Assembly: GCA_000002445.1 (NCBI GenBank) | Contig: CP000070.1 | Location: 1,440,001-1,504,000 of the forward strand | Direction of reading: 5' to 3' | Source: Trypanosoma brucei | Taxonomy: Eukaryota | DNA: 64,000 nucleotides | Shown here: in pieces, positions 262 through 23,465 of the stretch | Numbering within the stretch: the first letter of the stretch is position 1 | Layout: each line of letters opens with the position of its first letter | Made by a program: the position numbers and the translations under genes | Notes under the pieces: generated by a model | What the model was told of the DNA's origin: nothing | The model's database searches: none | What the model saw: only the letters and a program-made list of their open reading frames with translations

Positions 262-265
<4 letters not shown>

Positions 266-304
<39 letters not shown>

Positions 305-2712: not shown

Positions 2713-5670
2713 CTATTGTGTCATATCATATCAGGGTTTCATTTATTTATAAATAAATATATATTGTTATTATATGATCGTGTGTGTTTGTGTTTTGACG
2801 TGGCTGTAGAGAAGGGGAGATTTATATTCAACTTTTTATTTGTTTTACATTTTCTTCGTTTTGTATGTATTTAAAAGAAGTAAAAATAAATAAATTAATA
2901 TATATATATATATATATATTAAAAATCTTAAGTGTCCTTCTGAGCTAAAGCTGTTGCGTGTTTATAAGAAAATGAAAAGAAAAAAAAGAAAAACGAAAGG
3001 GATAAATAGATAAAGGATCGGTGTAATAATTTTTGTTATTTGTTTATTTATATTTCCTCCCTCTTCCCTTTTATCTGTTTTTTTTCCGCATTTTCTTCGG
3101 GATTCGCTTCATCATTTATTTTGTTTATATATTTCTTTTCTTTTTTCTTTATCTTTTTCATTCGTAATTGTTATATTTATTCCCTTTTTTCCTTTTCTAT
3201 ATTTTCACCCCACTTTTATTATGATGTACATTTATATGCGTATCAAATCTGTCGATTTTATTTTATTTTATTGTTTTACTATTTTCTTTTTCTTTTGTTT
3301 CTTTTTGTTTTTTATTTTTATTTTATTATTATTATCATCATGTTGTGATGACTGTTTTTCTGTCCTCTCCTTTCAATTTACCATTTCTGTCTTTTTTTTA
3401 TATGTTGTTCCTATTATTTATGTCTTTTTTAAAAAAAAAAATAATTTTGGAGGAGGTCGTTGTTATTATTGTTAATACTACTTTTATTATTGTTGGTAAC
3501 TATGATAATGAGGATTGTATTATTATTATTATTATCGTTGTTATTTTCCAGCTACAATTGGGGTTGAAACGTGAGAGATGGAAAAAGAAACAATAGAAAC
3601 AAAAGAGTCAAAACGAAAAAGAGTAGAAAAGAAAAAAAGAAAAGAAATAATAATAATAATAATACAATATTGATGACAATAAAATATATAATGAATAGAA
3701 AATAAGGGAGATATGAGGCTAAAAACCCGTAGAAAAGTCACTTGGAAATATAAAACAATGAATATTTTCCAGTATGTTAAGCGAACCCGTGAACAAAATG
3801 AAAGTCAAATATCGGTAGCTATTTAAAAAGGGGGAAAAACAACAACGGCCGGAACAAATACGTAAAGAAGAGTTTATCAATCACACTTTGCACGTGTAGT
3901 GAAACTCGTTCAAATTGATTAATAGACTAATTAATTGATTAAATAATTAAAAAATCATTCAAATCATTCTTACCAACGCATCTTCCCACATTTATATAAC
4001 TATATATTTTTCAGTATTGATGTATTTTTTTCTTTTATATTTCGTAACTGTCTTTTTTTTTCCGCTTTTTTTAAAAAGAAAGAAAAATGCCTACTATGCT
4101 GCTTCGTATTTTATATTAGGCTTTTTTGACCATTTCAACCCCGACATTTACCATCAATAAAGATGGTAATAATGAAATATATATATATACATATATAACT
4201 ACGGGAGGCCTTTTATTAAATTACTATTATCGTTTTTGTTTTTGTATTGTAGACCTTCTGCCTTGAAGAAAACAAGGCATGGGTGTAGAGAGGGGAAAAA
4301 AAACTAGATGTACGAAGATAAAAAGCTTTCTCATTTACTCTCTTCTTTTTTGTGTGTTTTATTAACGTCTGTTCTTAATTTTTTTTTCTTCTTATTTCTT
4401 AATTTTATTTGTTTATATTTTACTGATGTTGTGGGAAATGCGGAAAGGAGCTACTCACTTTTTTTCTTCCACTGAAGGGGAAAAGGAAGAAAATTTAACA
4501 TATATATTTTTCATAACTAAATGATAAAAGGGATTCGAGCCGGAGAAATATAAAAAAAAATGGGGAAAGAAGAAAAGAGAGAGATATGGAGTTAAATAGG
4601 TTTGTTACGTCTGAAAAACCTTTTGTGTATAAGTAAATAATATTAATATATATATTAATATTATATTATATATATGTTTGGTATTTAAATTTCTTATAAG
4701 GGGAAAACGATTATACGTAATGCACATATAAGTATTTACAATTATATATATTTACATATTCATACGCCTATACATTCACGTATACACACTTTTTTGATCA
4801 CTTATATTTATATTCACTTATATTAATTTGATTAGCATTGGTATATATGTATGACTGTACTTGTAGACCTCTGTTTGATACATTTCATATGGAAGAAAGG
4901 AGAAGAAGGGGGAGGGAAATGAAAAAAAGAAAATGAAAGAGAAAATGGCTCTCTACTGGGATAAAAACAGGAAAATAAAATTAGGGGGGAGAAGGTGCTT
5001 GCAAAGGGAAAACGACTCTTTTTTTGTTTTGTTTTTTTATTTTTATTTTTTGTTATTTATTTGTACGCGTCTGTTTCCGGCCTAAGTTGCGCACGGGGAG
5101 TTCGGGGGGCTGTTTATTATTATTATTATTATTTTCCCGGTTTCCACCGCTTTTTGTCGTTAGTGTTTATGCTTTTGTGTTTCGGGGGAGCAACGCACAA
5201 CTGTCACTTTGTCTTCGACGTGTCCTTTTGTGCATGCTTTAAAAAAATTTTTTATTTACTTGTTGTGAGCCTTGGAGGGAGGGAAGTTGCTTCACTGTTC
5301 CTTTTCTATTATTTTTTCCTTATTTTTATTTTGGTCTCTCATCATTTTTAATGGGGGTTTTGTTTTAACTGACTGTTGTTATTTTTTTTCCCTAACTGTC
5401 TTCAATGTTTGAGCGACTGTTATAAATCTTGACTTTTGATTATTTTTATCTTTTATTATTTTATTATTTTGTTTGTTTTCCTTTTTTTTTAAAAAAACCT
5501 TTTCTCTTTCTGCGTGCGTGAGTATGTGTCTGTTTCCAGACTGACCACTTTCAAAAAGTGATTTTTTTGTACACGCAATTTGGTAATGCGATCTGGCATC
5601 AAAATGATGATAAAAATGATCTGCTTTTTAATCCCGTTGTTTCTTCTGTGTCTACCGTTTCATCAATAGT

Positions 5671-5714
5671 TTTTCTTTCCTTTCCACTTTCTTCTTTCTT
5701 TCTTTTTTTTCCTA
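5671..5714 (+). promoter_or_regulatory. Polypyrimidine tract upstream of the first gene. With the ttcttttcag AG at 5906-5917 it gives a likely spliced-leader acceptor and polyadenylation guide region.
   Basis: A CT-rich run ttttctttcctttccactttcttctttctttctttttttt, and a separate cttttcag AG 14 nt upstream of the ATG at 5932. Confidence 0.45.
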
Positions 5715-5931
5715 TTCATGAAGGGCCTCCGTGTAACCCTTTGCCTTTTTGTGATTAATACAAGCACATAATAAAACAAGCTGAAGAAAAAGGGTAGAAG
5801 GAAAGGAGAGGGACGAAAAGGAAACTGGGAGGAGAGGAGAGGAGGGGGGAGAAAGATTTTTCTCACAGCCTCCAACGACTACGACAGACTGTATTTCTGC
5901 ACTTGATTTCTTTTCAGGTGAGGAAGAGCGG

Positions 5932-8900: not shown

Positions 8901-10155
8901 TTCATTCCAGACTTCTAACGAAACAGCGATTGATGGCACACCGACGCATGGTGCAAGAAGACGCTGGTCGTTTAAGTTATTTTTTTCTCCTCTTATTTAC
9001 CTTTCTGCGTTTCTTCTTGTATACGCGATTACCGCTGCCGTTGTTGTTCCCATTCTTGCGGGACGTCAATCTAAATGGAAACGGCGATGTGCACTCGTGA
9101 ACAGGTTCCTTCGCTCTTTGCTTGAGGAGCAATCTCTTGTGAACACTGCTCTTAACAGAATAAACTTCTGTCTTCGCGGTATGGCACTTGTGAACATCAT
9201 AACAGCTGTACAGCTCGTCACAAGCAACATAATTTCCCTTCGTACCCCAGATTATCGTCTTGAAGCGACGAACTGGATGAGCACTAAGTCCCATGTACCA
9301 AATACGTTACCGGATGGTGATTTTACCAATTGGTGTATTGCTTTGTCGCTTCTACTACCTGTGCTTTTATTTGGAGTTGCCTTTCATGGTACCGCGTGGC
9401 GAGTGGTGCGTGGCTGCGATACTATGGTAGGATCCGCAACAACGTATACTACCGTTTTTTTCATTGACTTAACCACTTTTATTATATTTTTTCCTCTTCA
9501 CTTTATCTGTTCTGTGTTGGTAGAACCACTACTTTTTACTCTTGTGGCTGCGTTTACCATCGGGACATCATTACCTGTACTGCTTGAGCGACTACCTCTT
9601 GTGCCACCCGACAGCCTGCTCCACCCTTTGAGTTGTCCAAGCGCCGATGAAAAAAAACAGTGCCATGACAGAAACGACTTCTGTGCTCGATCGGCATCTT
9701 TCTTTTCTAATCGGTTACTTGCGAATATGCCACCCACGAAGTGGTCACCCAATCTCAACTGTGTAAGAGCACTGCTCTGCGCACACGAGGTGGTGTGGCC
9801 TCCGGACAGGGCACAGAAAACTAAATCCCAACATCGCTTCAACAATTTTTGCAGTGGCATTAATAACACTAATGGTTGCCAACACCCCCTCCAACAACTG
9901 CTTTGCCGCTGCATCAGGTGGTACATTACGATGCACAGTTTTCTTTTCTGGGGCTCGGTCGCTCGTTATGAAAAAAGCAGATCAGCGGTACGTTTGGAAC
10001 TCGTCCATGAGGGATACAGGGAGTTTTTTCAACCACAATCAGCTGCGTCATGGGAAACCGCAACGCAGGACAGTAACGAACTTCGGGTGGTCACACTCCC
10101 TTTTAAATCGTTAGACCATCAAAAAATGCCAAAATCAGAAACATTGTTTGGTTGA
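5932..10155 (+). CDS. Hypothetical protein of 1407 aa. The N-terminal ~1000 aa look soluble; the C-terminal ~400 aa carry at least 6 predicted transmembrane helices.
   Basis: Long uninterrupted ATG-initiated ORF. Hydrophobic helix-length segments in the C-terminus include VAHWLQVFASVVCVFFWIASLGLYFF, LIYLSAFLLVYAITAAVVVPILA, WCIALSLLLPVLLFGVAFHG and TTVFFIDLTTFIIFFPLHFICSVLVEPLLFTLVAAFTIGTSLPVLL. No family recognised. Confidence 0.8.
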   Translation: MERTEDVTYLKLIPMCTAAERSEASLLLGTFVGCFSENDKLDLEVCDDSRYVLRGIRKSLRQLVYDGNGVEAKETLERLVHIVCERRMATAALRSPFVAPNTLTCYLPSSAQCERRGGVTMLRVLRELVGTASSLNNSIELNESGDYTGWPVSVLPCPLLYVVYYLTSAQCSEGSKDDFCSPWAKLFFGELLSLEGTENDELEAVVASYDDMPGTCTCGPTSRENLPHTQQPLLMKKIRHNITRLFSTSFPHHGAWRLLSFMDVYSAWIRRDLHRALDGATQALHAATFGEDKCTMLWIARHVLRFIHAFAVAATTNLANHDSRREMEYKLEHVNSHYNSSDDDSFACNDSIASQLYFPHSPSLLLDVRENFRFVLFSDWPDCSEAGERRGEDKTTFCRGDGVASRQTKHVNHRRSSGNSDNLPSGSATSRQFGTCRVSLFVSLLEVWLRAKKHTDAGEMVESRILIVNTLDSLFDNSASDEVPKGPFSAWEHRTAEYMCPIQWLRQVLLVNCAALVDSPTVLHMLWNWPHPLTTGESVFLAVCPTLTAGGLHSPILSCVPFCPTTSPMCLDDFIQLVDCWPLPVQVPLLMQRIWYKQQELQRPSVDKGGNRNTKGYNSTEDDMCCEEGERRLSLQWEVLHLCEILVDRARGLSGTLELSFTECSPHRALLEAITTVCELQEDILRVTATCLAGDHQTSSSRSPSSGSVSSDGTEVEVPNRADITTALGSCEELVCLRCREAFEDSASLFHRNGPTDKDDQREKLAGSGGHKTNATEDPLLFHLFPIISTTKPVVAHEVFWLAHKQLPRWAAVFLQNYGYLKVSAAVCRLRIAAAAFDPTTPQLAAEMLAAFPNNAVVAVHAAASLFASLHIVQAKQCINEAVQEYPHSAELHRVFHMIHSSGNRKQLRDQLKETPQRSRHKNIAGITYSHQYRGMCTVRYKVAQCDSVAHWLQVFASVVCVFFWIASLGLYFFDNVLRTAVDVSDSPPPSFQTSNETAIDGTPTHGARRRWSFKLFFSPLIYLSAFLLVYAITAAVVVPILAGRQSKWKRRCALVNRFLRSLLEEQSLVNTALNRINFCLRGMALVNIITAVQLVTSNIISLRTPDYRLEATNWMSTKSHVPNTLPDGDFTNWCIALSLLLPVLLFGVAFHGTAWRVVRGCDTMVGSATTYTTVFFIDLTTFIIFFPLHFICSVLVEPLLFTLVAAFTIGTSLPVLLERLPLVPPDSLLHPLSCPSADEKKQCHDRNDFCARSASFFSNRLLANMPPTKWSPNLNCVRALLCAHEVVWPPDRAQKTKSQHRFNNFCSGINNTNGCQHPLQQLLCRCIRWYITMHSFLFWGSVARYEKSRSAVRLELVHEGYREFFQPQSAASWETATQDSNELRVVTLPFKSLDHQKMPKSETLFG

Positions 10156-10533
10156 AAAATACTATCCTTCAAGTTGCCTCATTTCTTTTTATTTTTCAAC
10201 ACTTTAATGGTTTTTTGTCGTTTTTTTTTCCAACTTGAACTACCTGTACTACCGTTGCATTTTTTTTTATGAAGTTGGGGTGTTCTCTGCCTTTTTTGTG
10301 GAGATGCAGCCATACTTTGTTACCACTAACGAGTGTGGTAGCTATCTTTTTCGGCTACAGTCGTCACGGATAAGGATGCCTTGCGTGCATTGTGCCGCCA
10401 TCCCTCCATGTATGTCTTCTTGATGATACTCGTTTACTTCTTTCTTTGACCTTTCCCACTGTTTATTTTTGCTGACGTGTACGAAAGAGGCACTGTGACA
10501 CTCCAGTTGCAATTAAGTAATAACACCTGAGGT

Positions 10534-12195
10534 ATGTATACAACAACAGACCTCATACAGACGCGGGTCGCTCCAGCACACTTGTTTGTTATTGTCTACT
10601 TTCTACAGTGGTTGTTTGTGGCGAGTACCGCATCTGGCGAGAGTGTTCATGCGATCTTCAAAATATCGAAATCTGGAGATGCACCCTTCTTCAAACAAGC
10701 TGAGAGGCACTGCGAGCGCGCTAAAATGCGTCTTGCGACGCCGACGACGGCAAAGGGGGCGACTGCTGTGAAGAAGTTGCTGAAACGCTGCGGTCCATCT
10801 GATGTACCCGTACTTGGCGGTGGCCTAAGCGTGCGATGCAGCAGTAACTCTTTTTTCTTCTTGTGGTCACCGAAACTGGATGAACCCAAGTACCCTGTTG
10901 AGGACACAGCACCATACTGCGGGGAACGCGATCCGCGAGGGTGGGGGACCAAGTGTGTGACAAGGAACAGGAGTGCGGGGAGGTTATTTTACCAATTTCA
11001 TACATCTGAGGGCGAGAAAGGGAACTGTACCGGACCTGTGACAATGGACTATGACCCGGCGATTCTCTATGAATTGGAGGTCCCTAGTGCTGGTGAGGAG
11101 GGTCTCCTCGCATGGGTTGTCTCGCGTGGTGGCAAGAACGGAAGCACTGCTGCGCTTAGGAGCCTTCGATCAGACTTGGAGGACACATCCCGCGCATACA
11201 TTGGAGATTCGAGCAAAATGATCGAGTACGTCCTGTGTGAGGGTGGAAGGTCCTCCGTCGTGTCTTCCACATCATGCTATTCCGTTTCTTATGCTTCTGT
11301 GCCAAATGTTGGCGGTTCAAGTCGAACGGGTGTTCATTGGTTGGTGATTGTCTTCCTCTCCTTCATCGGATTGATTGTGTTATGTGTAGTAACCCTGTCT
11401 ATTGTCGGTGGAGTTACGAAAAAAGTAACCGCAGGGAATGTTGATCGGGGAGACAACACTGGTAGTGGACGGCGACGAACCTCTTTGTCTCACAGCAGCT
11501 GGCATGTAATGAGCCAACCAGGAGGCAGCAGCGGGATTCAATATTCTCGTCGTGGTAGCCAGCCGGGTAACATCCTTTCTCCGCTTCAAGATGCTGCGAG
11601 CATTAACATGCAACGCTATGAAAGCGATGGGGTAGCCGCTGTACCTCGGCAAGGAAGCTTTAACGGCAGAAACACACAACAGCGAAGTAGTTTACCAACA
11701 AACGTAAATCAAGCGCAACAAAATTACAACACAAACAGAGTTACGTCACAAGTAAGCAATTATAGCGCAAGCTTACATCGTCTCGGGAGCTTCCGTGGCC
11801 CCATCATCCATCGTCAAGGAAGCTTCAACAACATTACCTCCGTACCAGCAGGGAATACCTATACTGGGGGTTTATCGCGTCCTGGGAGCTTCCGTGGCTC
11901 AAGCCCCAACCATCAAGGAAGTTTTAACCGTAGTGATATATTTCGCGATCCTAGTCTCTATGGTGAATCTCCTCCTCACGGTGATCCACGCTTGGGTTTA
12001 AACCCTCTTCGGGACATTGGCTACGACAGGGGAAATGCCCCAGAGCAGGTGAGCCTTTCTTCGGTCGGTATGGCCCAACAGGGCAACTTTGCAAACGTTG
12101 GTGCACGTGGCGGGAGCTTCCGAGGAATAAACCGCAACCAACAAGGAAGTTTCCGCAACTCGAACCCGCCGTCTGGTGGTTTGTTTAACACGTAG
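10534..12195 (+). CDS. Type-I membrane protein (553 aa), paralogue A. It has a signal peptide, a Cys-containing ectodomain, one transmembrane helix, and a Ser/Gly/Asn/Gln-rich cytoplasmic tail with reiterated R-x-G-S-F motifs.
   Basis: ATG at 10534. N-terminal hydrophobic segment LFVIVYFLQWLFVASTASG. Transmembrane helix VHWLVIVFLSFIGLIVLCVVTLSIVGGV. The tail contains RRGSQ, RQGSFN, RLGSFRG, RQGSFNN, RPGSFRG, HQGSFNR, RGGSFRG and QQGSFRN. Confidence 0.8.
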   Translation: MYTTTDLIQTRVAPAHLFVIVYFLQWLFVASTASGESVHAIFKISKSGDAPFFKQAERHCERAKMRLATPTTAKGATAVKKLLKRCGPSDVPVLGGGLSVRCSSNSFFFLWSPKLDEPKYPVEDTAPYCGERDPRGWGTKCVTRNRSAGRLFYQFHTSEGEKGNCTGPVTMDYDPAILYELEVPSAGEEGLLAWVVSRGGKNGSTAALRSLRSDLEDTSRAYIGDSSKMIEYVLCEGGRSSVVSSTSCYSVSYASVPNVGGSSRTGVHWLVIVFLSFIGLIVLCVVTLSIVGGVTKKVTAGNVDRGDNTGSGRRRTSLSHSSWHVMSQPGGSSGIQYSRRGSQPGNILSPLQDAASINMQRYESDGVAAVPRQGSFNGRNTQQRSSLPTNVNQAQQNYNTNRVTSQVSNYSASLHRLGSFRGPIIHRQGSFNNITSVPAGNTYTGGLSRPGSFRGSSPNHQGSFNRSDIFRDPSLYGESPPHGDPRLGLNPLRDIGYDRGNAPEQVSLSSVGMAQQGNFANVGARGGSFRGINRNQQGSFRNSNPPSGGLFNT

Positions 12196-13365
12196 GGAGT
12201 TCGCGCCATCTTTTGGCTTCACCCAATGGGAGTAGTTTGGTGTTGCTTGCTGACGTGCCTTTGACCAATGCGGAGATGAGTACATCCGCATATCGAACCA
12301 ATTAGTTACTACAGCGTCTGTGTTAGGTCATTGCCTTACATCCTTCGCTACTTCACTGTATCATCGGATTGAGTATTTTACCACTGTTACTCCCCTCTAC
12401 ATATATTCGCGTTTATACCCTTACCCTACGGTTTTGTCAAATATATATATATATACATGTGTGTGCGTGTGAAGTTTCCCCCACTTTGTTTTGAGTGCAT
12501 TCGCTACGACATGCGTGACAGTGACGCTATTTGGACCACTTCGTTGCGTACGTATCGTAGGCTGCACAGCGAGCACCTTCGCATCGCCTCATTGTTTACG
12601 ATGTGGTCACGCTCCACCCTCTCTTTTTCACTGCGACATGGTTGAACTATGAGTTTGGAGTTGACCCTCCATAGTACTGTCGTGTATTTCGTGTTATTCT
12701 TTTTTTTTTCTCTGTTGTCTCCGCTTGTGCCTTGCTTATGCTTCTATTTTCTTTGTGCCTTCTATTTCCCCGTTTCCGTCAGTGGCTCTACAGTCTGAGT
12801 GAGTGCGGTGGTGAAATGCGGTGTATTGCGCAATGCGCGTGTCAACTGCTTCCTTTCCTTTTGTTTGATATTATTTCCCTCATCATTTTCTTTTCAGACG
12901 TTTTATTATTTTCTGTTATTATTATTATTATTTATTTTTTATTCTTTGCTCATTCATTACCGAGGGTACCGTAATAGATATGATGTGGTATTGGCTTACT
13001 GCTACACCTTTTCTTACTATCCCGCAACCTTGTTCTAGTCCTTTGGAGGGGGTAAGTCACTCCAGAGATTACGATGGGATAAAATGAGTCGGCCGATTGT
13101 TTATATGTTACTCGGGGTGCGCAATGCTGAACGTTTTGTTGTGTGTACAGAGGATTCTTTGCCTTCTTTACTCTTTACCATGTTCTTTCAATTATTTTCT
13201 TACTTCTCCCATAATAGTAAGGTGTGATTATACTCAAGTGGATATCCGTGTGTGACGTGTGCTGGTGCCAATAGGCGTGCTAAACACACGAGTCTCCCTC
13301 TTCAGTGATAAACTCGATTTAACATTTATTTGTAATTCTTACCACTGACCATTCATCTTCATGCG

Positions 13366-16086
13366 ATGTCTGCCTCTCGATCTCCCTCTGGCAGTGGGAG
13401 TTTGTATCCCGCTGGCACCATGTCAACGGGATGTTCCCTGCCTTCATTGACGTGTCCCCCGAAACTTGGTGTGGGCAAGGTTGAGGGCAGTAGCGACACT
13501 GTTTCCATGGAGCGCTCGCAAGCTGGCAGCCAGTGGGCCGGCGGGACACATGCTGAAGAAGTGTGGGCATGCAAAAATGCTGCTTACACCAGGGCAATGA
13601 AATATTCCAAAGGATTGGTTGCGGACGTGGTGGATAGTTCGGTAGAATTCCTGCCACGCCGTCTCATGAGGAGTTCTGTGAACCACAGTATAAAGGACAG
13701 GAAATCGTCTTTCAGTGTCATGGCTGATGTTGGGCGCGACACGCAACAGCAATCTTTGGCTGCCACAAGCTGCAAAGGTACTTCATCCACTCCCATGAGT
13801 GAAGCCACATTCCCATTCCTTGACGGTGGGAAGGTACAACCAACGGATCCAGGGCACCTAAAAGCTGGAATTACGTACGATCCGCAGTCGTATGGATCGC
13901 TTTTACCCACGACGCTGAAGGTACGATCCGTTGAGGAAGCTGTGAGTGGCCCTCTAATGGGGGTTGCGGCTAACGAAATGTTTGCAAACCGAGATGCTAA
14001 ACAGATGTTGAGGGGTATTCTCCAGCCGGTACAGAAGACTTCGCAATTTTCACAGTACTTTGATCGACAACAGTTTGAGGGTAAAATGAGGCAGTTGGAG
14101 GAAAGCGCGCGACACTTCAGCAAATGTCTTGCTCAGCGTGTGTCTTCCAGTACCGGTGGTGGTGGTGTGATGATTGTCGTAAACGATTCTGATGATGGGA
14201 GCTCCGACGACGGTGGTTTGATGGGTGACGGTGTGAGACGCAGAGCTCGAAAGCCCGCCAAAATGGTAGACGAAGCGCGAGTAGCTGGCGACGCTGAATC
14301 TAATGCCCGGAAACAGCGACTTAACGCACTTCGTTGCACTCCACAGAATCTTTGTAGCTCGGTGGCGTTGCGTGATGCGTTGAAGAAAAGCAGGATTACG
14401 GTGAAGAAAGCACGATGCAGTGCTGTTAATGTAGCAAGACACAGCTCTGATCTACTGGAGCTTCTGCGGAGGAGAGGATCGAGGAGCACTGGTCCCCAGG
14501 AAGCGATGGTTGTTTTGCCCAACGAAGAGGTTTCATGGGACACGGGATCTGTTTCACCGAATAAGTGTACCCAAGCCTCATTTGCGTCGATACCGGATTC
14601 TGCATGTGGTAATGAGGGTCACCGCACCAAGGTTGTTACAGACCAGCGCGCTGTAACAATGCTGGAGTCGTTTTTGCGCAGCGGCAAGGGATTGACGACT
14701 CATGGTATTTTACCTGCAACACTGTATGGCAATCACTGTGGCCCCAATGGCGGCCAGTTGATCCCTGCACCAGAATCTTCGCGGTTACCATCAATGCTAG
14801 ATACTGCTTTCAGTGATGTTTTCTCCACTGGTGCATTATCACCAAGTGGGCAGCAGCTAGCGGCATCAGCAGAGTGCTTGCAACAGCAGAGGAAAAGTGT
14901 CCACCGTACGAAACCAGCCCGCCGTGTGATTCCTGTTGGTTACGGGATGAGTGCTCGTGCCCGTCAAAACTACGAGGCGATGGTGGAGAACTGGGAGGTG
15001 AGTGAGATCGAGCAAGAGCTTCGGAACGGGGAAGCATTATGCCACGCCCGCCGTCGGCTGCTGAAGCTCGTGTCTGAGCGCAAACGGTTGTTAAACGCGT
15101 CGCTCGCGCACTTCCACCATAACCCGCAGCAAGCCGTGTCGCTGCAGCGGCGTGAGATATTCCGGATGGTTGTCGAGGTTGATGCCGAGGACCGTAAGCA
15201 GGCGTGTTTTTCATTTGTTGATTTGCTTGAACAGTGCTGCCGGAACACTCTGGATGATGCCGCATGGTCTGTTGTTTCCGGCGCCTTGAAGTCTAGCCGC
15301 GATCTTATCCAACTCTCTCCACTACGGTGCAACCCGCAGAATTTCATTTCCATTCTGAACGACTGTCTGTCATTGCAGCATATCCGGGATCAGCGCGTTC
15401 AAGATGCTCTACAGTGGTTAGCAAAACTCTTTGGTGTATCGCAAGGGCAATTCAAGTCTGCACTACAATCATTGCACCACAACCTCAACAAGCCACGCGA
15501 TTACGAGGCACGGTTCCATGAAATTGACAGCCGCGTGTGTGGGATAGCAGCGTCCACTGAGAGACGTGTTCGTATTAAACTGCGCCGTTGCAACTTTCAG
15601 CTTCCCCGTCCTGTGGGTGCTGGCAACCAAATGAACCCCCTTGTCACCAGCAATGGTGATGGCGCTGTGGGCTGTGTGTTGGGTCCCAACACCTGTGTTG
15701 ATCGTCCTGAAGTATCGCTCGTTTTTCAGCTGGGAAATGAAACTGCCGTCTCCTCAACACTCAGCGCTCATCGTAGCGGTACCGGAGGGAGTGGTGATGT
15801 GGTGTGTGAGATGGTTGATGACGCCCCGTGCTATGTGGTTGACTTCAATGACGAAATTGTGCAGCTGAAGACTGTGGACACCAGTGTGGTACGCGTCTCT
15901 CTTTACTGCAACGGCAACGTTCTTTGCAGTGGCTTCTTGCACCTGTCCAAGTGTACTTTCCACAGTAATCGTACCTTATCTGTCATTCTTCGTCTCGACA
16001 ACAAAAGAATATTTGTGGCTGATCTGAGGATCAATGTGGAGCTTGTGTATGGAAGGGACCGCCGGGGGCGGGGTGGGAGAAGGTAG
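13366..16086 (+). CDS. Hypothetical protein of 906 aa (copy A). It has no recognisable domain and an acidic Asp/Ser-rich patch flanked by basic stretches.
   Basis: ATG-initiated 2.7-kb ORF duplicated at 19902-22622; the two copies differ at 3 amino-acid positions. Confidence 0.75.
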   Translation: MSASRSPSGSGSLYPAGTMSTGCSLPSLTCPPKLGVGKVEGSSDTVSMERSQAGSQWAGGTHAEEVWACKNAAYTRAMKYSKGLVADVVDSSVEFLPRRLMRSSVNHSIKDRKSSFSVMADVGRDTQQQSLAATSCKGTSSTPMSEATFPFLDGGKVQPTDPGHLKAGITYDPQSYGSLLPTTLKVRSVEEAVSGPLMGVAANEMFANRDAKQMLRGILQPVQKTSQFSQYFDRQQFEGKMRQLEESARHFSKCLAQRVSSSTGGGGVMIVVNDSDDGSSDDGGLMGDGVRRRARKPAKMVDEARVAGDAESNARKQRLNALRCTPQNLCSSVALRDALKKSRITVKKARCSAVNVARHSSDLLELLRRRGSRSTGPQEAMVVLPNEEVSWDTGSVSPNKCTQASFASIPDSACGNEGHRTKVVTDQRAVTMLESFLRSGKGLTTHGILPATLYGNHCGPNGGQLIPAPESSRLPSMLDTAFSDVFSTGALSPSGQQLAASAECLQQQRKSVHRTKPARRVIPVGYGMSARARQNYEAMVENWEVSEIEQELRNGEALCHARRRLLKLVSERKRLLNASLAHFHHNPQQAVSLQRREIFRMVVEVDAEDRKQACFSFVDLLEQCCRNTLDDAAWSVVSGALKSSRDLIQLSPLRCNPQNFISILNDCLSLQHIRDQRVQDALQWLAKLFGVSQGQFKSALQSLHHNLNKPRDYEARFHEIDSRVCGIAASTERRVRIKLRRCNFQLPRPVGAGNQMNPLVTSNGDGAVGCVLGPNTCVDRPEVSLVFQLGNETAVSSTLSAHRSGTGGSGDVVCEMVDDAPCYVVDFNDEIVQLKTVDTSVVRVSLYCNGNVLCSGFLHLSKCTFHSNRTLSVILRLDNKRIFVADLRINVELVYGRDRRGRGGRR

Positions 16087-17112
16087 GAACGGCTCGTGAG
16101 TCTGTGTGGCCTTTGCTCACATAAATGGTCACGGGATTAACGTTCGAATGTATGTGTATCTTTGTGCATATGTGCACTGTGCGTTTGCTGTAACATGAAA
16201 CTGTCCTGGATATGATAATGTTTCTTCACGCTTGTGTTTTATTGGTTTGCGTAAACGGGAACCGTCACATGAGCAATGTTAGCCTTTCTTTTTTTCCTTT
16301 ACTTGCTGTACATGTTATGGATGAGAGCCTTGTTTGTTCTGCTCTTTATCCTTCCCTCTCTCATACACACACTTTCACCGTTTCTTTTCCATTATTTTAT
16401 AACTGATTGATGGTCATTAGAGGTCGAGTGTGCTTCACTGCTGGGGTAGCGGTAAGGGGCGCGCAAAAACCCACACGTTTGTGTGGTGTCATTGAGGCTG
16501 GTAATGGAAGGTCGTTTACTCTCCAGTATTTTTCGGAATTACGATTTGTATTTTTATCATAGTGAGTAATTTGTTTTTTTCTAGACTTCATGCACACCTT
16601 TTAGATTTTCTGTTGCTGTTTTAAAGAACGATGTATTATTTTTGTCGTTTTGTTACTGCTGCTCCCATTTTTTATCTATTCGTCCCTTATTATGGTGTGA
16701 GCTCTTTTAACTTTACTGCCGTTATGGCACTGTGGCTGAGGCAATCTTTTAAAACTTTAGATTAATTTTTTTTTAAAATCACTTTTATGGTTTTTTGTCG
16801 TTTTTTTTTCCAACTGAACTACCTGTACTACCGTTGCATTTTTTTTTATGAAGTTGGGGTGTTCTCTGCCTTTTTTGTGGAGATGCAGCCATACTTTGTT
16901 ACCACTAACGAGTGTGGTAGCTATCTTTTTCGGCTACAGTCGTCACGGATAAGGATGCCTTGCGTGCATTGTGCCGCCATCCCTCCATGTATGTCTTCTT
17001 GATGATACTCGTTTACTTCTTTCTTTGACCTTTCCCACTGTTTATTTTTGCTGACGTGTACGAAAGAGGCACTGTGACACTCCAGTTGCAATTAAGTAAT
17101 AACACCTGAGGT

Positions 17113-18735
17113 ATGTATACAACAACAGACCTCATACAGACGCGGGTCGCTCCAGCACACTTGTTTGTTATTGTCTACTTTCTACAGTGGTTGTTTGTGG
17201 CGAGTACCGCATCTGGCGAGAGTGTTCATGCGATCTTCAAAATATCGAAATCTGGAGATGCACCCTTCTTCAAACAAGCTGAGAGGCACTGCGAGCGCGC
17301 TAAAATGCGTCTTGCGACGCCGACGACGGCAAAGGGGGCGACTGCTGTGAAGAAGTTGCTGAAACGCTGCGGTCCATCTGATGTACCCGTACTTGGCGGT
17401 GGCCTAAGCGTGCGATGCAGCAGTAACTCTTTTTTCTTCTTGTGGTCACCGAAACTGGATGAACCCAAGTACCCTGTTGAGGACACAGCACCATACTGCG
17501 GGGAACGCGATCCGCGAGGGTGGGGGACCAAGTGTGTGACAAGGAACAGGAGTGCGGGGAGGTTATTTTACCAATTTCATACATCTGAGGGCGAGAAAGG
17601 GAACTGTACCGGACCTGTGACAATGGACTATGACCCGGCGATTCTCTATGAATTGGAGGTCCCTAGTGCTGGTGAGGAGGGTCTCCTCGCATGGGTTGTC
17701 TCGCGTGGTGGCAAGAACGGAAGCACTGCTGCGCTTAGGAGCCTTCGATCAGACTTGGAGGACACATCCCGCGCATACATTGGAGATTCGAGCAAAATGA
17801 TCGAGTACGTCCTGTGTGAGGGTGGAAGGTCCTCCGTCGTGTCTTCCACATCATGCTATTCCGTTCCTTTTATCCTATCAGTTGCAAGTAGCGATGACAA
17901 GTCGCATTTTGATCATCGGCACAACGTCACTATTGGTATATTGGTTTTAATTGTTTTAATTTTAATTATTGTAGCCGCTTTCTTAATTTTGTGGCTCCTT
18001 TCACGGAACCGTCCGGCAGGTGATGTTGAGGAAAACCGGCGCAACGGATCAGATGTACAGAGAACTGTCGTTGAGTCGGTTGGTGATTTAGGTGGAACTG
18101 TTAGATCCGAAAGCTACTCGGGGCGAGGTAGCAAGTCGGGTGACAATCTTTGTCGTCCGGAAAATGTAAACGGTAATTGTCCCCAGGTGAATAATGGATT
18201 CTGTGTTAACGGATCCCCCCAACAAGAAAATTTGCAAATGAATGCCCCTGGACAACAACCAAATTTTAACTACCACAGCACAACACCCGAAATACAAACA
18301 TACAGTGGCGAAATGGAACTACGGACTAACTTTGGTGGTCCTATCTTGTACCGCCAAGGAAGCTTCAGACAAAATATAACCTCCGACGTCAATCCAACAC
18401 CGCTAAGCGCCACACAGCGTCCTGGGAGCTTCCGTGGCTCAAGCCCCAACCATCAGGGTTGTTTCAACCGTAGTGATGTATTTCGTGAGCCTAGTCTCTA
18501 TGGTGAATCTCCTCCTCACGGTGATCCACGCTTGGGTTTAAACCATCCTCGGGACATTGGCTACGACAGGGGAAATGCCCCGGAGCAGGTGAGCCTTTCT
18601 TCGGTCGGTATGGCCCAACAGGGCAACTTTGCAAACGTTGGTGCACGTGGCGGGAACTTCCGAGGAATAAACCGCAACCAACAAGGAAGTTTCCGCAACT
18701 CGAACCCGCCGTCTGGTGGTTTGTTTAACACGTAG
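17113..18735 (+). CDS. Type-I membrane protein (540 aa), paralogue B. The N-terminal 263 aa are identical to paralogue A. The transmembrane and juxtamembrane segment is diverged. The C-terminal ~100 aa are near-identical.
   Basis: ATG at 17113. Transmembrane helix IGILVLIVLILIIVAAFLILWLL. The tail carries YRQGSFRQN, RPGSFRG, GGNFRG and QQGSFRN. Confidence 0.8.
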   Translation: MYTTTDLIQTRVAPAHLFVIVYFLQWLFVASTASGESVHAIFKISKSGDAPFFKQAERHCERAKMRLATPTTAKGATAVKKLLKRCGPSDVPVLGGGLSVRCSSNSFFFLWSPKLDEPKYPVEDTAPYCGERDPRGWGTKCVTRNRSAGRLFYQFHTSEGEKGNCTGPVTMDYDPAILYELEVPSAGEEGLLAWVVSRGGKNGSTAALRSLRSDLEDTSRAYIGDSSKMIEYVLCEGGRSSVVSSTSCYSVPFILSVASSDDKSHFDHRHNVTIGILVLIVLILIIVAAFLILWLLSRNRPAGDVEENRRNGSDVQRTVVESVGDLGGTVRSESYSGRGSKSGDNLCRPENVNGNCPQVNNGFCVNGSPQQENLQMNAPGQQPNFNYHSTTPEIQTYSGEMELRTNFGGPILYRQGSFRQNITSDVNPTPLSATQRPGSFRGSSPNHQGCFNRSDVFREPSLYGESPPHGDPRLGLNHPRDIGYDRGNAPEQVSLSSVGMAQQGNFANVGARGGNFRGINRNQQGSFRNSNPPSGGLFNT

Positions 18736-19901
18736 GGAGTTCGCGCCATCTTTTGGCTTCACCCAATGGGAGTAGTTTGGTGTTGCTTGCTGACGTGCCT
18801 TTGACCAATGCGGAGATGAGTACATCCGCATATCGAACCAATTAGTTACTACAGCGTCTGTGTTAGGTCATTGCCTTACATCCTTCGCTACTTCACTGTA
18901 TCATCGGATTGAGTATTTTACCACTGTTACCCCCCTCTACATATATTCGCGTTTATACCCTTACCCTACGGTTTTGTCAAATATATATACATACATATGT
19001 GTGCGTGTGAAGTTTCCCCCACTTTGTTTTGAGTGCATTCGCTACGACATGCGTGACAGTGGCGCTATTTGGACCACTTCGTTGCGTACGTATCGTAGGC
19101 TGCACAGCGAGCACCTTCGCATCGCCTCATTGTTTACGATGTGGTCACGCTCCACCCTCTCTTTTTCACTGCGACATGGTTGAACTATGAGTTTGGAGTT
19201 GACCCTCCATAGTACTGTCGTGTATTTCGTGTTATTCGTTTTTTTTTCTGTTGTCTCCGCTTGTGCCTTGCTTATGCTTCTATTTTCTTTGTGCCTTCTA
19301 TTTCCCCGTTTCCGTCAGTGGCTCTACAGTCTGAGTGAGTGCGGTGGTGAAATGCGGTGTATTGCGCAATGCGCGTGTCAACTGCTTCCTTTCCTTTTGT
19401 TTGATATTATTTCCCTCATCATTTTCTTTTCAGACGTTTTATTATTTTCTGTTATTATTATTATTATTTATTTTTTATTCTTTGCTCATTCATTACCGAG
19501 GGTACCGTAATAGATATGATGTGGTATTGGCTTACTGCTACACCTTTTCTTACTATCCCGCAACCTTGTTCTAGTCCTTTGGAGGGGGTAAGTCACTCCA
19601 GAGATTACGATGGGATAAAATGAGTCGGCCGATTGTTTATATGTTACTCGGGGTGCGCAATGCTGAACGTTTTGTTGTGTGTACAGAGGATTCTTTGCCT
19701 TCTTTACTCTTTACCATGTTCTTTCAATTATTTTCTTACTTCTCCCATAATAGTAAGGTGTGATTATACTCAAGTGGATATCCGTGTGTGACGTGTGCTG
19801 GTGCCAATAGGCGTGCTAAACACACGAGTCTCCCTCTTCAGTGATAAACTCGATTTAACATTTATTTGTAATTCTTACCACTGACCATTCATCTTCATGC
19901 G

Positions 19902-22622
19902 ATGTCTGCCTCTCGATCTCCCTCTGGCAGTGGGAGTTTGTATCCCGCTGGCACCATGTCAACGGGATGTTCCCTGCCTTCATTGACGTGTCCCCCGAAA
20001 CTTGGTGTGGGCAAGGTTGAGGGCAGTAGCGACACTGTTTCCATGGAGCGCTCGCAAGCTGGCAGCCAGTGGGCCGGCGGGACACATGCTGAAGAAGTGT
20101 GGGCATGCAAAAATGCTGCTTACACCAGGGCAATGAAATATTCCAAAGGATTGGTTGCGGACGTGGTGGATAGTTCGGTAGAATTCCTGCCACGCCGTCT
20201 CATGAGGAGTTCTGTGAACCACAGTATAAAGGACAGGAAATCGTCTTTCAGTGTCATGGCTGATGTTGGGCGCGACACGCAACAGCAATCTTTGGCTGCC
20301 ACAAGCTGCAAAGGTACTTCATCCACTCCCATGAGTGAAGCCACATTCCCATTCCTTGACGGTGGGAAGGTACAACCAACGGATCCAGGGCACCTAAAAG
20401 CTGGAATTACGTACGATCCGCAGTCGTATGGATCGCTTTTACCCACGACGCTGAAGGTACGATCCGTTGAGGAAGCTGTGAGTGGCCCTCTAATGGGGGT
20501 TGCGGCTAACGAAATGTTTGCAAACCGAGATGCTAAACAGATGTTGAGGGGTATTCTCCAGCCGGTACAGAAGACTTCGCAATTTTCACAGTACTTTGAT
20601 CGACAACAGTTTGAGGGTAAAATGAGGCAGTTGGAGGAAAGCGCGCGACACTTCAGCAAATGTCTTGCTCAGCGTGTGTCTTCCAGTACCGGTGGTGGTG
20701 GTGTGATGATTGTCGTAAACGATTCTGATGATGGGAGCTCCGACGACGGTGGTTTGATGGGTGACGGTGTGAGACGCAGAGCTCGAAAGCCCGCCAAAAT
20801 GGTAGACGAAGCGCGAGTAGCTGGCGACGCTGAATCTAATGCCCGGAAACAGCGACTTAACGCACTTCGTTGCACTCCACAGAATCTTTGTAGCTCGGTG
20901 GCGTTGCGTGATGCGTTGAAGAAAAGCAGGATTACGGTGAAGAAAGCACGATGCAGTGCTGTTAATGTAGCAAGACACAGCTCTGATCTACTGGAGCTTC
21001 TGCGGAGGAGAGGATCGAGGAGCACTGGTCCCCAGGAAGCGATGGTTGTTTTGCCCAACGAAGAGGTTTCATGGGACACGGGATCTGTTTCACCGAATAA
21101 GTGTACCCAAGCCTCATTTGCGTCGATACCGGATTCTGCATGTGGTAATGAGGGTCACCGCACCAAGGTTGTTACAGACCAGCGCGCTGTAACAATGCTG
21201 GAGTCGTTTTTGCGCAGCGGCAAGGGATTGACGACTCATGGTATTTTACCTGCAACACTGTATGGCAATCACTGTGGCCCCAATGGCGGCCAGTTGATCT
21301 CTGCACCAGAATCTTCGCGGTTACCATCAATGCTAGATACTGCTTTCAGTGATGTTTTCTCCACTGGTGCATTATCACCAAGTGGGCAGCAGCTAGCGGC
21401 ATCAGCAGAGTGCTTGCAACAGCAGAGGAAAAGTGTCCACCGTACGAAACCAGCCCGCCGTGTGATTCCTGTTGGTTACGGGATGAGTGCTCGTGCCCGT
21501 CAAAACTACGAGGCGATGGTGGAGAACTGGGAGGTGAGTGAGATCGAGCAAGAGCTTCGGAACGGGGAAGCATTATGCCACGCCCGCCGTCGGCTGCTGA
21601 AGCTCGTGTCTGAGCGCAAACGGTTGTTAAACGCGTCGCTCGCGCACTTCCACCATAACCCGCAGCAAGCCGTATCGCTGCAGCGGCGTGAGATATTCCG
21701 GATGGTTGTCGAGGTTGATGCCGAGGACCGTAAGCAGGCGTGTTTTTCATTTGTTGATTTGCTTGAACAGTGCTGCCGGAACACTCTGGATGATGCCGCA
21801 TGGTCTGTTGTTTCCGGCGCCTTGAAGTCTAGCCGCGATCTTATCCAACTCTCTCCACTACGGTGCAACCCGCAGAATTTCATTTCCATTCTGAACGACT
21901 GTCTGTCATTGCAGCATATCCGGGATCAGCGCGTTCAAGATGCTCTACAGTGGTTAGCAAAACTCTTTGGTGTATCGCAAGGGCAATTCAAGTCTGCACT
22001 ACAATCATTGCACCACAACCTCAACAAGCCACGCGATTACGAGGCACGGTTCCATGAAATTGACAGCCGCGTGTGTGGGATAGCAGCGTCCACTGAGAGA
22101 CGTGTTCGTATTAAACTGCGCCGTTGCAACTTTCAGCTTCCCCGTCCTGTGGGTGCTGGCAGCCAAATGAACCCCCTTGTCACCAGCAATGGTGATGGCG
22201 CTGTGGGCTGTGTGTTGGGTCCCAACACCTGTGTTGATCGTCCTGAAGTATCGCTCGTTTTTCAGCTGGGAAATGAAACTGCCGTCTCCTCAACACTCAG
22301 CGCTCATCGTAGCGGTACCGGAGGGAGTGGTGATGTGGTGTGTGAGATGGTTGATGACGCCCCGTGCTATGTGGTTGACTTCAATGACGAAATTGTGCAG
22401 CTGAAGCCTGTGGACACCAGTGTGGTACGCGTCTCTCTGTCCTGCAACGGCAACGTTCTTTGCAGTGGCTTCTTGCACCTGTCCAAGTGTACCTTCCACA
22501 GTAATCGTACCTTATCTGTCATTCTTCGTCTCGACAACAAAAGAATATTTGTGGCTGATCTGAGGATCAATGTGGAGCTTGTGTATGGAAGGGACCGCCG
22601 GGGGCGGGGTGGGAGAAGGTAG
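19902..22622 (+). CDS. Hypothetical protein of 906 aa (copy B).
   Basis: Substitutions relative to copy A: P to S at IPAPESS / ISAPESS, N to S at GAGNQ / GAGSQ, and T to P with Y to S at LKTVDTSVVRVSLY / LKPVDTSVVRVSLS. Confidence 0.75.
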   Translation: MSASRSPSGSGSLYPAGTMSTGCSLPSLTCPPKLGVGKVEGSSDTVSMERSQAGSQWAGGTHAEEVWACKNAAYTRAMKYSKGLVADVVDSSVEFLPRRLMRSSVNHSIKDRKSSFSVMADVGRDTQQQSLAATSCKGTSSTPMSEATFPFLDGGKVQPTDPGHLKAGITYDPQSYGSLLPTTLKVRSVEEAVSGPLMGVAANEMFANRDAKQMLRGILQPVQKTSQFSQYFDRQQFEGKMRQLEESARHFSKCLAQRVSSSTGGGGVMIVVNDSDDGSSDDGGLMGDGVRRRARKPAKMVDEARVAGDAESNARKQRLNALRCTPQNLCSSVALRDALKKSRITVKKARCSAVNVARHSSDLLELLRRRGSRSTGPQEAMVVLPNEEVSWDTGSVSPNKCTQASFASIPDSACGNEGHRTKVVTDQRAVTMLESFLRSGKGLTTHGILPATLYGNHCGPNGGQLISAPESSRLPSMLDTAFSDVFSTGALSPSGQQLAASAECLQQQRKSVHRTKPARRVIPVGYGMSARARQNYEAMVENWEVSEIEQELRNGEALCHARRRLLKLVSERKRLLNASLAHFHHNPQQAVSLQRREIFRMVVEVDAEDRKQACFSFVDLLEQCCRNTLDDAAWSVVSGALKSSRDLIQLSPLRCNPQNFISILNDCLSLQHIRDQRVQDALQWLAKLFGVSQGQFKSALQSLHHNLNKPRDYEARFHEIDSRVCGIAASTERRVRIKLRRCNFQLPRPVGAGSQMNPLVTSNGDGAVGCVLGPNTCVDRPEVSLVFQLGNETAVSSTLSAHRSGTGGSGDVVCEMVDDAPCYVVDFNDEIVQLKPVDTSVVRVSLSCNGNVLCSGFLHLSKCTFHSNRTLSVILRLDNKRIFVADLRINVELVYGRDRRGRGGRR

Positions 22623-23465
22623 GAACGGCTCGTGAGTCTGTGTGGCCTTTGCTCACATAAATGGTCACGGGATTAACGTTCGAATGTATGTGTATCTTTG
22701 TGCATATGTGCACTGTGCGTTTGCTGTAACATGAAACTGTCCTGGATATGATAATGTTTCTTCACGCTTGTGTTTTATTGGTTTGCGTAAACGGGAACCG
22801 TCACATGAGCAATGTTAGCCTTTCTTTTTTTCCTTTACTTGCTGTACATGTTATGGATGAGAGCCTTGTTTGTTCTGCTCTTTATCCTTCCCTCTCTCAT
22901 ACACACACTTTCACCGTTTCTTTTCCATTATTTTATAACTGATTGATGGTCATTAGAGGTCGAGTGTGCTTCACTGCTGAGGTAGCGGTAAGGGGCGCGC
23001 AAAAACCCACACGTTTGTGTGGTGTCATTGAGGCTGGTAATGGAAGGTCGTTTACTCTCCAGTATTTTTCCGTATTCTGTATGTTTTCCTAACAGGTTGT
23101 CATACCGTAGATATCTATGTGGATTACGGTTTATCAAGTTTCTTACGTTTTTTCCTGGCAATACTCGTGCGAATGGTTATTGCGATAATCTTTTTTTGGG
23201 TTTTAACCTTTATTGTCAACGTAACGTTTCTGGAAGGGCATATAACGGGCGCAATATCGATATCCCTAGTCCCCCGGCACCTCTAACTCTGAATTCGTTG
23301 GTATCTTACGTGACGGAATTGCGTTTGTTACACAGATCATGTGGCGTATCGGTGTCAGCTTCTCGCGTTCGATTCCAAGCACGTGAGTTTCTTACTCGTG
23401 GTATTGCGAAAGATCTCTTTTGCTCTGATACCGACAAGGGGAGTACTGCATTGTGCAATGGTGGA

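What the first reader, a model, noticed from the sequence alone, without database searches (positions are those of the whole stretch)
11320..11880. Mosaic paralogues: identical ends around a diverged transmembrane/juxtamembrane patch (gene-conversion signature).
In the 553-aa and 540-aa proteins, residues 1-263 are 100% identical: signal peptide and ectodomain up to ...SSTSCYSV. The last ~100 residues differ by only about 5 substitutions. The intervening ~180 residues (the transmembrane helix plus the first half of the cytoplasmic tail) are unalignable in detail, yet keep the same architecture and the same RQGSF-type motifs. The equivalent patch in copy B is 17865-18420. Such a sharp identity/divergence boundary inside a recent duplication implies either patchy gene conversion homogenising the ends, or import of the central segment from a third paralogue elsewhere in the genome.
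Basis: seen in the sequence. Interest (0 to 1): 0.6.

Follow-up and report, generated by a model that had tools for sequence, protein, structure and literature searches.

The report
Mosaic tandem lectin-like receptor genes
Two neighbouring Trypanosoma brucei genes for a lectin-like membrane protein are kept almost identical by gene conversion, except for an anciently diverged membrane-spanning segment; this is a real but ordinary outcome of concerted evolution in trypanosome tandem repeats, and it yields two protein isoforms.

Summary
The window is T. brucei chromosome 7. A 6.3-kb unit holding a 553/540-aa gene plus a 906-aa gene is tandemly duplicated: 10186-16534 and 16766-23070, 99.4% identical. 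Only 11287-11876 (copy A) and 17866-18416 (copy B) differ.

The two patches are homologous in the same frame (26-28% aa identity, BLASTP E=2e-9), and their synonymous sites are saturated, so the split is ancient.

Comparing TREU927 with T. b. gambiense DAL972 gives 36 flank sites where both copies share a strain-specific base, against 13 copy-specific sites. That is the signature of continuing gene conversion. Both patches and their boundaries are conserved between strains and are under purifying selection.

No third paralogue was found, but the T. brucei genome DNA could not be searched. T. cruzi, T. theileri and T. melophagium have one unit. T. vivax duplicated the locus independently, without a diverged patch.

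The parts
10186..16534 (+). Repeat unit A: 5' intergenic/UTR, the 553-aa gene, its 3' UTR/intergenic region, and the 906-aa gene
   Evidence: Self-blastn blocks at 99.4% to unit B.
16535..16765 (+). 231-nt unique spacer between the two units
   Evidence: No similarity to the sequence before unit A, to the sequence after unit B, or to anything else in the window.
16766..23070 (+). Repeat unit B: the 540-aa gene plus the second 906-aa gene
10534..12195 (+). Copy A CDS, 553 aa. It is identical to TREU927 XP_846163.1/Q582F5. The name Tb927.7.5400 is inferred from gene order only.
   Evidence: ORF; identical to P0005.
17113..18735 (+). Copy B CDS, 540 aa = Tb927.7.5420 / XP_846165.1 / Q582F7
   Evidence: ORF; identical to P0002. 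The gene id and UniProt id are tied to the B-specific sequence in the PMC6907760 supplement.
10636..11286 (+). Ectodomain coding region of copy A, 100% identical to 17215-17865 in copy B. C-type-lectin-like fold with 8 conserved Cys.
11287..11876 (+). Diverged patch A (residues 252-448): stalk, TM helix and proximal cytoplasmic tail. This is the type closer to T. congolense.
   Evidence: A vs T. congolense is 32-35% identical in the patch, against 20-21% for B.
17866..18416 (+). Diverged patch B (residues 252-435): stalk with an added NVT sequon, TM helix, and a proximal tail with 3 Cys and degenerate RxGSF motifs
11338..11418 (+). Predicted TM helix of copy A (residues ~269-295, WLVIVFLSFIGLIVLCVVTLSIVGGVT), followed by KK
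   Evidence: Kyte-Doolittle 19-residue windows >1.8, plus reading of the sequence.
17926..18000 (+). Predicted TM helix of copy B (residues ~272-296, VTIGILVLIVLILIIVAAFLILWLL)
   Evidence: Kyte-Doolittle windows.
11877..12195 (+). Shared distal tail of copy A (105 codons plus stop). It holds four copy-specific amino-acid differences kept in both strains (S463C, P491H, L492P, S528N), interleaved with sites homogenised within each strain.
   Evidence: Codon table for five sequences; site patterns.
18417..18735 (+). Shared distal tail of copy B. It includes C450 and N515 in place of the GSF serines, and the reported phosphosite S444.
13366..16086 (+). 906-aa gene, copy 1 (part of the repeat unit)
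19902..22622 (+). 906-aa gene, copy 2 (part of the repeat unit)

Best explanation
Tb927.7.5420 (copy B) and its upstream twin (copy A) are old tandem paralogues. Each sits in a 6.3-kb repeat unit that also carries a 906-aa gene.

The two units evolve in concert. Gene conversion and/or unequal crossing-over between them keeps overwriting the 5' region, the lectin-like ectodomain, most of the distal tail, the UTRs and the neighbouring gene. These parts therefore look newly duplicated.

The ~590/550-nt segment encoding the stalk, TM helix and proximal cytoplasmic tail diverged beyond what homologous recombination tolerates. Conversion tracts now stop at its edges. Purifying selection keeps both versions. 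The result is two expressed isoforms with an identical ligand-facing domain and different membrane and juxtamembrane modules.

Shown here: the mosaic itself; homology and synonymous saturation of the patches; strain-specific changes shared by both copies in the flanks; conservation of both patches under purifying selection.

Inferred: that heterology blocks conversion; that selection maintains the two modules; that the duplication is as old as the patch divergence.
For: 1. Flanks are 99.4-100% identical and the patches do not align by blastn.

2. The patches are homologous in the same frame (BLASTP E=2e-9; score 143 against shuffles 35±6.4; other frames score 22-31).

3. Synonymous sites are saturated (pS 0.77; codon identity 19 against 16.1 expected at 47 identical residues).

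4. Concerted evolution: 36 sites where both copies differ together between strains, against 13 copy-specific sites in the flanks. The same three signal-peptide substitutions occur in both DAL972 copies.

5. Both patches are constrained between strains and have identical boundaries: A pN/pS 0.011/0.028, B 0.0071/0.040.

6. Copy-specific differences cluster next to the 3' boundary, 11 in 240 nt (P=4e-9). Four are amino-acid changes kept in both strains, while synonymous sites between them were homogenised.

7. GC3 is 0.55 in the homogenised N-terminal part, against 0.42 and 0.39 in the patches. The latter are near the 0.416 singleton value of Jackson 2007.

8. Jackson 2007 proposes this same escape-from-conversion dynamic for T. 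brucei arrays.

9. No third paralogue appears in a full HMM scan.
Against: - Only one copy, A-like, is known from T. congolense. T. cruzi, T. theileri and T. melophagium have a single unit. So there is no independent evidence that the duplication itself is old.
- T. vivax duplicated the same locus with different breakpoints. This shows that young duplications do arise here.
- Rooting the A/B/T. congolense patches with outgroups is inconclusive (A+Tco 6, A+B 3, B+Tco 1 sites).
- The 'concerted' pattern could be inflated if reads from the two 99%-identical units were mixed in either assembly. The DAL972 locus has a 100-N gap in unit A.
- No formal gene-conversion test (e.g. GENECONV) was run.
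Confidence: 0.65

Rival explanations
1. Recent segmental duplication, followed by ectopic gene conversion. In this reading the central segment of one copy was replaced from a third, anciently diverged paralogue elsewhere in the genome. That donor is now lost, pseudogenised or unannotated.
For: - Very sharp 5' boundary, with ~1,080 nt carrying only a 1-nt indel and then random-level identity.
- The ancestral state in other trypanosomes is a single unit.
- The locus duplicates readily, as the independent T. vivax event shows.
Against: - No additional family member in T. brucei or any other species, beyond one orthologue each, in an HMM scan of 1.84 billion representatives.
- Nothing resembling either patch elsewhere in the window.
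- Among all family members B's closest relative in the patch is A.
- Jackson 2007 reports that ectopic conversion is rare in T. brucei arrays.
- Continuing inter-copy conversion is enough to explain the identical flanks.
Confidence: 0.15
2. A and B began as two anciently diverged, balanced alleles of a single-copy locus. Allelic recombination homogenised everything but the selected patch. An unequal crossover between homologues later fixed both alleles in tandem.
For: - It explains an old patch inside a structurally young duplication.
- It fits a single unit in most relatives.
- The T. b. equiperdum IVM-t1 assembly has one hybrid unit carrying only patch A.
Against: - It needs long-term balancing selection without direct evidence.
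- TREU927 and DAL972 both carry the tandem arrangement with the same 231-nt spacer region.
- The present data cannot separate it from the main model.
Confidence: 0.1
3. Rapid adaptive or relaxed divergence of the patch after a recent duplication.
For: - B is the long branch: in three-way comparison, sites changed only in B number 34, against 11 for A and 20 for T. congolense.
- B has lost RxGSF motifs.
Against: - Synonymous sites are saturated. Selection on the protein cannot produce that.
- B currently evolves no faster than A between strains, and its pN/pS is about 0.18.
Confidence: 0.04
4. Assembly chimera, or two alleles mis-assembled as a tandem repeat.
For: - 99%-identical 6-kb repeats are hard to assemble.
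- The OVI short-read assembly collapses the repeat.
- IVM-t1 shows one unit.
Against: - The DAL972 contig to the right of the gap reads from the 906-aa gene through the spacer to gene B and the second 906-aa gene. The left contig reads from the 1407-aa gene to gene A.
- The OVI contigs contain both patches.
- A copy-B-specific phosphopeptide has been detected.
Confidence: 0.02

Closest known systems
T. brucei tandem arrays evolving in concert with regions that escape conversion ('mixed dynamics' arrays; Jackson 2007, PMC1855330)
   Same: Same-strand tandem duplicates whose coding and non-coding parts are homogenised within a genome, while a divergent segment keeps orthology. The paper states that less conserved regions may escape conversion after duplication and then diverge freely.
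   Different: This locus was not found in the paper's main text. The unit is a two-gene repeat. The escaping segment is internal to the CDS (stalk, TM, proximal tail), whereas in Jackson's mixed-dynamics arrays the disrupted parts are flanking sequences/UTRs and only sometimes coding sequence. Here the UTRs are homogenised.
Phosphoglycerate kinase (PGK A/B/C) and hexose transporter (THT1/THT2) arrays of T. brucei
   Same: Tandem paralogues shaped by gene conversion into mosaics, with isoform-specific segments giving different cellular destinations or properties (as summarised).
   Different: In PGK the middle gene is a chimaera of its neighbours and the isoform differences are characterised. 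Here there are two copies, the donor-recipient history is unknown, and function is untested.
C-type lectin-like domain (CTLD) receptors
   Different: No Pfam PF00059 hit. No EPN/QPD/WND Ca2+/sugar motifs. The ectodomain is 220 aa with long low-confidence insertions. The family was detected in Trypanosoma only.
Trypanosome invariant glycoproteins IGP34/40/48 (Allison et al. 2014, PMC4497807)
   Same: [quoted passage not shown]
   Different: No sequence relationship was detected: no IGP appears among the HMM hits. IGPs hit PF00059 weakly, and this family does not. The tail here is an RxGSF repeat array.
The T. vivax duplication of the orthologous locus
   Same: Same gene pair (CTLD gene plus 906-like gene) tandemly duplicated at ~99% identity.
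   Different: Different breakpoints: inside the 1407-like and 1995-like genes, giving a chimeric 821-aa ORF. The two T. vivax copies are identical through the TM region and differ only in the number of 12-aa repeats. There is no diverged patch.

Membership tests
Concerted evolution of tandem paralogues by gene conversion / unequal crossing-over | Paralogues lie in tandem on the same strand and share long homologous flanks | tested here: met
   Units 10186-16534 and 16766-23070, 99.4% identical.
Concerted evolution of tandem paralogues by gene conversion / unequal crossing-over | Paralogues within a genome share derived states that differ from both orthologues in a related genome | tested here: met
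   36 strain-specific sites shared by both copies, against 13 copy-specific sites in the flanks, TREU927 vs DAL972. Y2C, H16Q and V21F occur in both DAL972 copies. Caveat: cross-copy read mixing in the assemblies was not excluded.
Concerted evolution of tandem paralogues by gene conversion / unequal crossing-over | A segment that escapes conversion keeps orthology between genomes | tested here: met
   Patch A and patch B are each 98-99% identical between strains, with identical boundaries.
Concerted evolution of tandem paralogues by gene conversion / unequal crossing-over | Statistically delimited conversion tracts (GENECONV/SISCAN-type test, or population data) | not tested
   Only site-pattern counts and a Poisson clustering test were done.
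Ectopic conversion from a third paralogue | A donor sequence exists elsewhere in the genome | tested here: inconclusive
   No donor among annotated proteins or in the window. The patch-only search failed to recover even its own source protein. T. brucei genome DNA is not searchable with these tools.
C-type lectin-like domain superfamily | CTLD fold | tested here: met
C-type lectin-like domain superfamily | Sequence match to Pfam Lectin_C (PF00059) | tested here: not met
   No Pfam family at E<=0.1.
C-type lectin-like domain superfamily | Ca2+-dependent carbohydrate-binding motifs (EPN/QPD and WND) | tested here: not met
   Absent from the T. brucei ectodomain and not conserved in the family. 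Membership therefore holds at fold level only; lectin activity is not implied.
C-type lectin-like domain superfamily | Conserved disulfide framework | tested here: inconclusive
   Eight Cys are conserved across species, but they were not mapped onto the canonical C1-C4/C2-C3 pairs.
Trypanosome IGP family (IGP34/40/48) | Detectable sequence homology to IGPs | tested here: not met
   The profile search of 1.84 billion representatives returned only the Trypanosoma orthologues and a few repeat-driven hits. No direct pairwise comparison with IGP sequences was done.

The most novel reading that the evidence does not exclude
The pair may be a selected DNA-level counterpart of mutually exclusive exons, in an organism that does almost no cis-splicing. 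One identical lectin-like ectodomain would be joined to two alternative stalk/TM/juxtamembrane cassettes. Selection would actively oppose gene conversion, both at the patch and at single residues in the otherwise homogenised tail (S463C, S528N).

Copy B would be a phospho-acceptor-depleted variant (7 -> 3 GSF motifs). It is Cys-rich, lacks the juxtamembrane lysines and carries an extra N-glycan sequon. It would therefore be sorted, turned over or signalled through differently from copy A, for example as a partner or attenuator in a heteromeric receptor.
Probability: 0.3. Interest if true: 0.55.

Novelty: new member of a known kind. Interest (0 to 1): 0.35.

Why it matters
The locus is a clean worked example of how concerted evolution and divergence coexist inside one gene. 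It is also a warning for comparative analyses. Flank identity makes the duplication look recent. Aligning A with B as if they were orthologues would inflate dN/dS; a 2026 preprint reports omega 1.18 for XP_846165.1.

For trypanosome cell biology it offers a natural domain swap. Two expressed type I proteins have identical ectodomains, 5' regions and near-identical 3' UTRs, but different TM and juxtamembrane segments. That is useful for studying sorting, turnover and tail phosphorylation of an uncharacterised, genus-specific lectin-like receptor family. It does not open a long-standing question.

Tried and rejected
1. A protein search with the B patch alone found nothing, not even its own source protein, so it says nothing about a donor.

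2. A nine-sequence profile search returned only the two T. brucei clusters. The 8,000-candidate limit was probably swamped by repeat words.

3. A frameshift origin for the patch is rejected. A's frames 2 and 3 score 31 and 22 against B, versus 143 in frame.

4. Rapid post-duplication divergence is rejected because synonymous sites are saturated.

5. I first read the T. equiperdum OVI fragment P0007 (B patch followed by A-like residues) as a shifted conversion boundary. I withdrew this. That assembly collapses the repeat and has an N10 contig break exactly at the start of the B patch.

6. Rooting A, B and T. congolense with outgroups is inconclusive.

7. T. congolense DNA could not be fetched. 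The AFDB fold library was unavailable.

8. The 231-nt spacer has no detectable homologue in the window.

9. Two further phosphoproteome supplements had no entry for either gene.

10. No tRNA genes, Rfam families or tandem repeats are in the window.

Full report
**Where we are.** The window is Trypanosoma brucei chromosome 7. The 540-aa ORF is identical to TREU927 XP_846165.1. Downstream genes include lipin, DHFR-TS, an old-yellow-enzyme-type oxidoreductase, GFAT and MOB1. All long ORFs lie on the + strand after an AT-rich 5.9 kb stretch. A phosphoproteome supplement links the copy-B-specific sequence TPLSATQRPGSFRGSSPNHQGCFNRSDVFRE to Tb927.7.5420 / Q582F7. The name Tb927.7.5400 for copy A is inferred from gene order only.

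**The observation.** Self-blastn shows a tandem duplication of a two-gene unit (the 553/540-aa gene plus a 906-aa gene). The units are 10186-16534 and 16766-23070, separated by a unique 231-nt spacer.
- They align in two blocks of 99.4% identity.
- 11287-11876 (A) and 17866-18416 (B) do not align at all.
- CDS nt 1-753 are 100% identical, and identity collapses within a few bases.
- Upstream of that boundary, about 1,080 nt carry a single 1-nt indel.
- Downstream of the patch there are 11 differences in the first 240 nt, then about 0.4% (Poisson P=4e-9).

**What the patches are.** They are homologous, in the same frame, and very old.
- 47/182 residues are identical. BLASTP gives E=2e-9. The Smith-Waterman score is 143 against 35±6.4 for shuffles, and the other frames score at background.
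- Synonymous sites are saturated. pS is 0.77. At the 47 identical residues, 19 codons are identical against 16.1 expected from codon usage.
- Neither a frameshift nor a burst of protein-level selection after a recent duplication can explain this.
- Each patch covers the stalk, the TM helix and about 150 residues of proximal tail.

**Evidence for concerted evolution.** The T. b. gambiense DAL972 locus (L002) has both genes with the same patch boundaries. Flank sites in the four sequences fall into three classes:
- 36 where the two copies of a strain agree with each other and differ from both copies of the other strain;
- 13 copy-specific: 4 at the extreme left edge, 6 just 3' of the patch, 3 in the 906-aa gene;
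- 34 singletons.

At protein level, Y2C, H16Q and V21F occur in both DAL972 copies. Without exchange between the copies after the strains split, the 36 shared sites would need parallel mutation.

In the distal tail, four copy-specific amino-acid differences (S463C, P491H, L492P, S528N) are kept in both strains. Synonymous sites between them (11976, 11988) were homogenised. This suggests short conversion tracts and/or selection against converting those residues.

Caveat: cross-copy read mixing in either assembly would mimic the concerted pattern, and DAL972 has a 100-N gap in unit A.

**Are both versions functional?** Between strains, patch A has pN/pS of 0.011/0.028 and patch B 0.0071/0.040. 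Both are constrained, and B does not currently evolve faster. A copy-B-specific phosphopeptide (pS444) has been detected.

**Family and fold.** A full HMM scan of 1.84 billion representatives finds one orthologue each in T. congolense, T. vivax, T. cruzi, T. melophagium, T. grayi and T. theileri. It finds no further T. brucei protein.
- All members share a signal peptide, an ectodomain of about 220 aa with eight conserved Cys, one TM helix, and a tail of RxxSF repeats, mostly RQGSF.
- Pfam Lectin_C is not hit, and the EPN/QPD/WND motifs are absent. This is a CTLD fold, not a demonstrated lectin.

**Which patch is ancestral, and how old is the duplication?**
- In the patch, A is closest to T. 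congolense (32-35%).
- B is closest to A (26%), then T. congolense (20-21%), and is the most divergent from every outgroup. B is the derived long branch.
- B lost 4 of 7 GSF serines. Two losses are inside the patch. Two are point changes in the otherwise homogenised tail, where T. congolense keeps Ser.
- B also gained three tail Cys and an NVT sequon, and it lacks the juxtamembrane KK of A.
- Outgroup rooting is inconclusive.
- T. cruzi, T. theileri and T. melophagium have a single unit in conserved synteny.
- T. vivax has its own tandem duplication with different breakpoints and a chimeric 821-aa ORF. Its two copies are identical through the TM region and differ only in repeat number.
- So duplication recurs at this locus, and homogenisation can be complete. 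The T. brucei patch is the exception that needs a barrier.

**Mechanism proposed.** Recombination between the units (gene conversion, possibly unequal crossing-over) homogenises everything that is still similar enough. Once the fast-evolving, repeat-derived tail and TM segment had diverged, heteroduplex rejection would end tracts at its borders. Purifying selection on two useful modules preserves them. Jackson (2007) formulated this same escape-from-conversion dynamic for T. brucei arrays.

GC3 is raised in the homogenised N-terminal part (0.55). It is at the singleton level in the patches (0.42 and 0.39, against 0.416 for single genes). This is consistent with conversion-associated GC bias but is confounded by protein composition.

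**Rivals.**
- Import from a third paralogue is weakened: no donor among annotated proteins or in the window. It is not excluded, because genomic DNA could not be searched.
- An origin as balanced alleles later fixed in tandem cannot be told apart from the main model with present data.
- An assembly chimera is very unlikely.

**Verdict.** The finding is a real, well-delimited mosaic, explained by a known process. It lies in an uncharacterised, genus-specific CTLD receptor-like gene pair. It is a new member of a known kind and of moderate interest.

Noticed in passing
window 60235-64000: A second mosaic tandem duplication. MOB1 (Pfam Mob1_phocein, E=3e-70) occurs twice, with 99.4-99.5% blocks (60235-60701 <-> 62550-63016; 61097-61657 <-> 63440-64000) around a non-aligning 395/423-nt patch. 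Copy 1 starts MEKHKEG at 61093. Copy 2 has AAG at the equivalent position (63436) and an alternative N-terminus (MKRFKAKLFDSDRTYKPKKKHKEG...).
   Followed up: partly
L004 (T. vivax SOPI01000350.1) 9483-21425: An independent tandem duplication of the orthologous locus: unit 7,966 nt, ~99% identity. The breakpoints lie inside the 3' end of the 1407-like gene and inside the 1995-like gene, creating a chimeric 821-aa ORF (15156-17621). The second CTLD copy (17952-19535) is not among the called genes. The two copies differ only by four 12-aa RQQSF repeats.
   Followed up: partly
L001 (T. b. equiperdum IVM-t1 CM010678.1) 9662-16001: This assembly has a single hybrid unit with patch A. It is A-like at the copy-specific sites next to the patch and B-like at 15871-15905 and beyond. 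This fits either a real deletion of copy B by unequal crossover or a collapsed assembly.
   Followed up: partly
L003 (T. equiperdum OVI CZPT02001905.1) 9619-9628: An N10 contig break lies exactly at the start of the B patch. The contig before it runs through gene A into the shared tail. The short-read assembly collapsed the repeat, and the annotated 165-aa 'protein' is an artefact of that collapse.
   Followed up: yes
window 1-5900: An AT-rich stretch (GC ~25%) precedes the first + strand gene. It has no tandem repeats, tRNAs or Rfam hits, and the 200-aa ORF at 207-809 has no Pfam hit. It aligns to IVM-t1 at only 93.8% with many indels, and a 44-nt inverted repeat lies at 263-306. It may be a strand-switch or transcription-start region.
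   Followed up: no
window 16535-16765: The 231-nt spacer between the two units is unique. It has no homology to the sequence before unit A or after unit B, so the duplication junction is not a simple head-to-tail join.
   Followed up: partly
window 15871-15905 / 22407-22441: A cluster of three copy-specific sites, conserved in both strains, lies near the 3' end of the 906-aa gene. It includes the amino-acid differences T->P and Y->S. This is a second small island that escapes homogenisation.
   Followed up: no
window 10534-10600 (signal peptide): All three amino-acid differences between TREU927 and DAL972 in residues 1-251 fall in the signal peptide (Y2C, H16Q, V21F), and they occur in both copies. 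The mature ectodomain is invariant between the strains.
   Followed up: no
preprint 10.64898/2026.06.15.732286: The preprint describes XP_846165.1 as a sub-telomeric locus on chromosome 04 with omega = 1.18. Here the gene lies in a chromosome 7 core region next to lipin and DHFR-TS. The omega value may be inflated if the mosaic paralogues were aligned as orthologues.
   Followed up: partly
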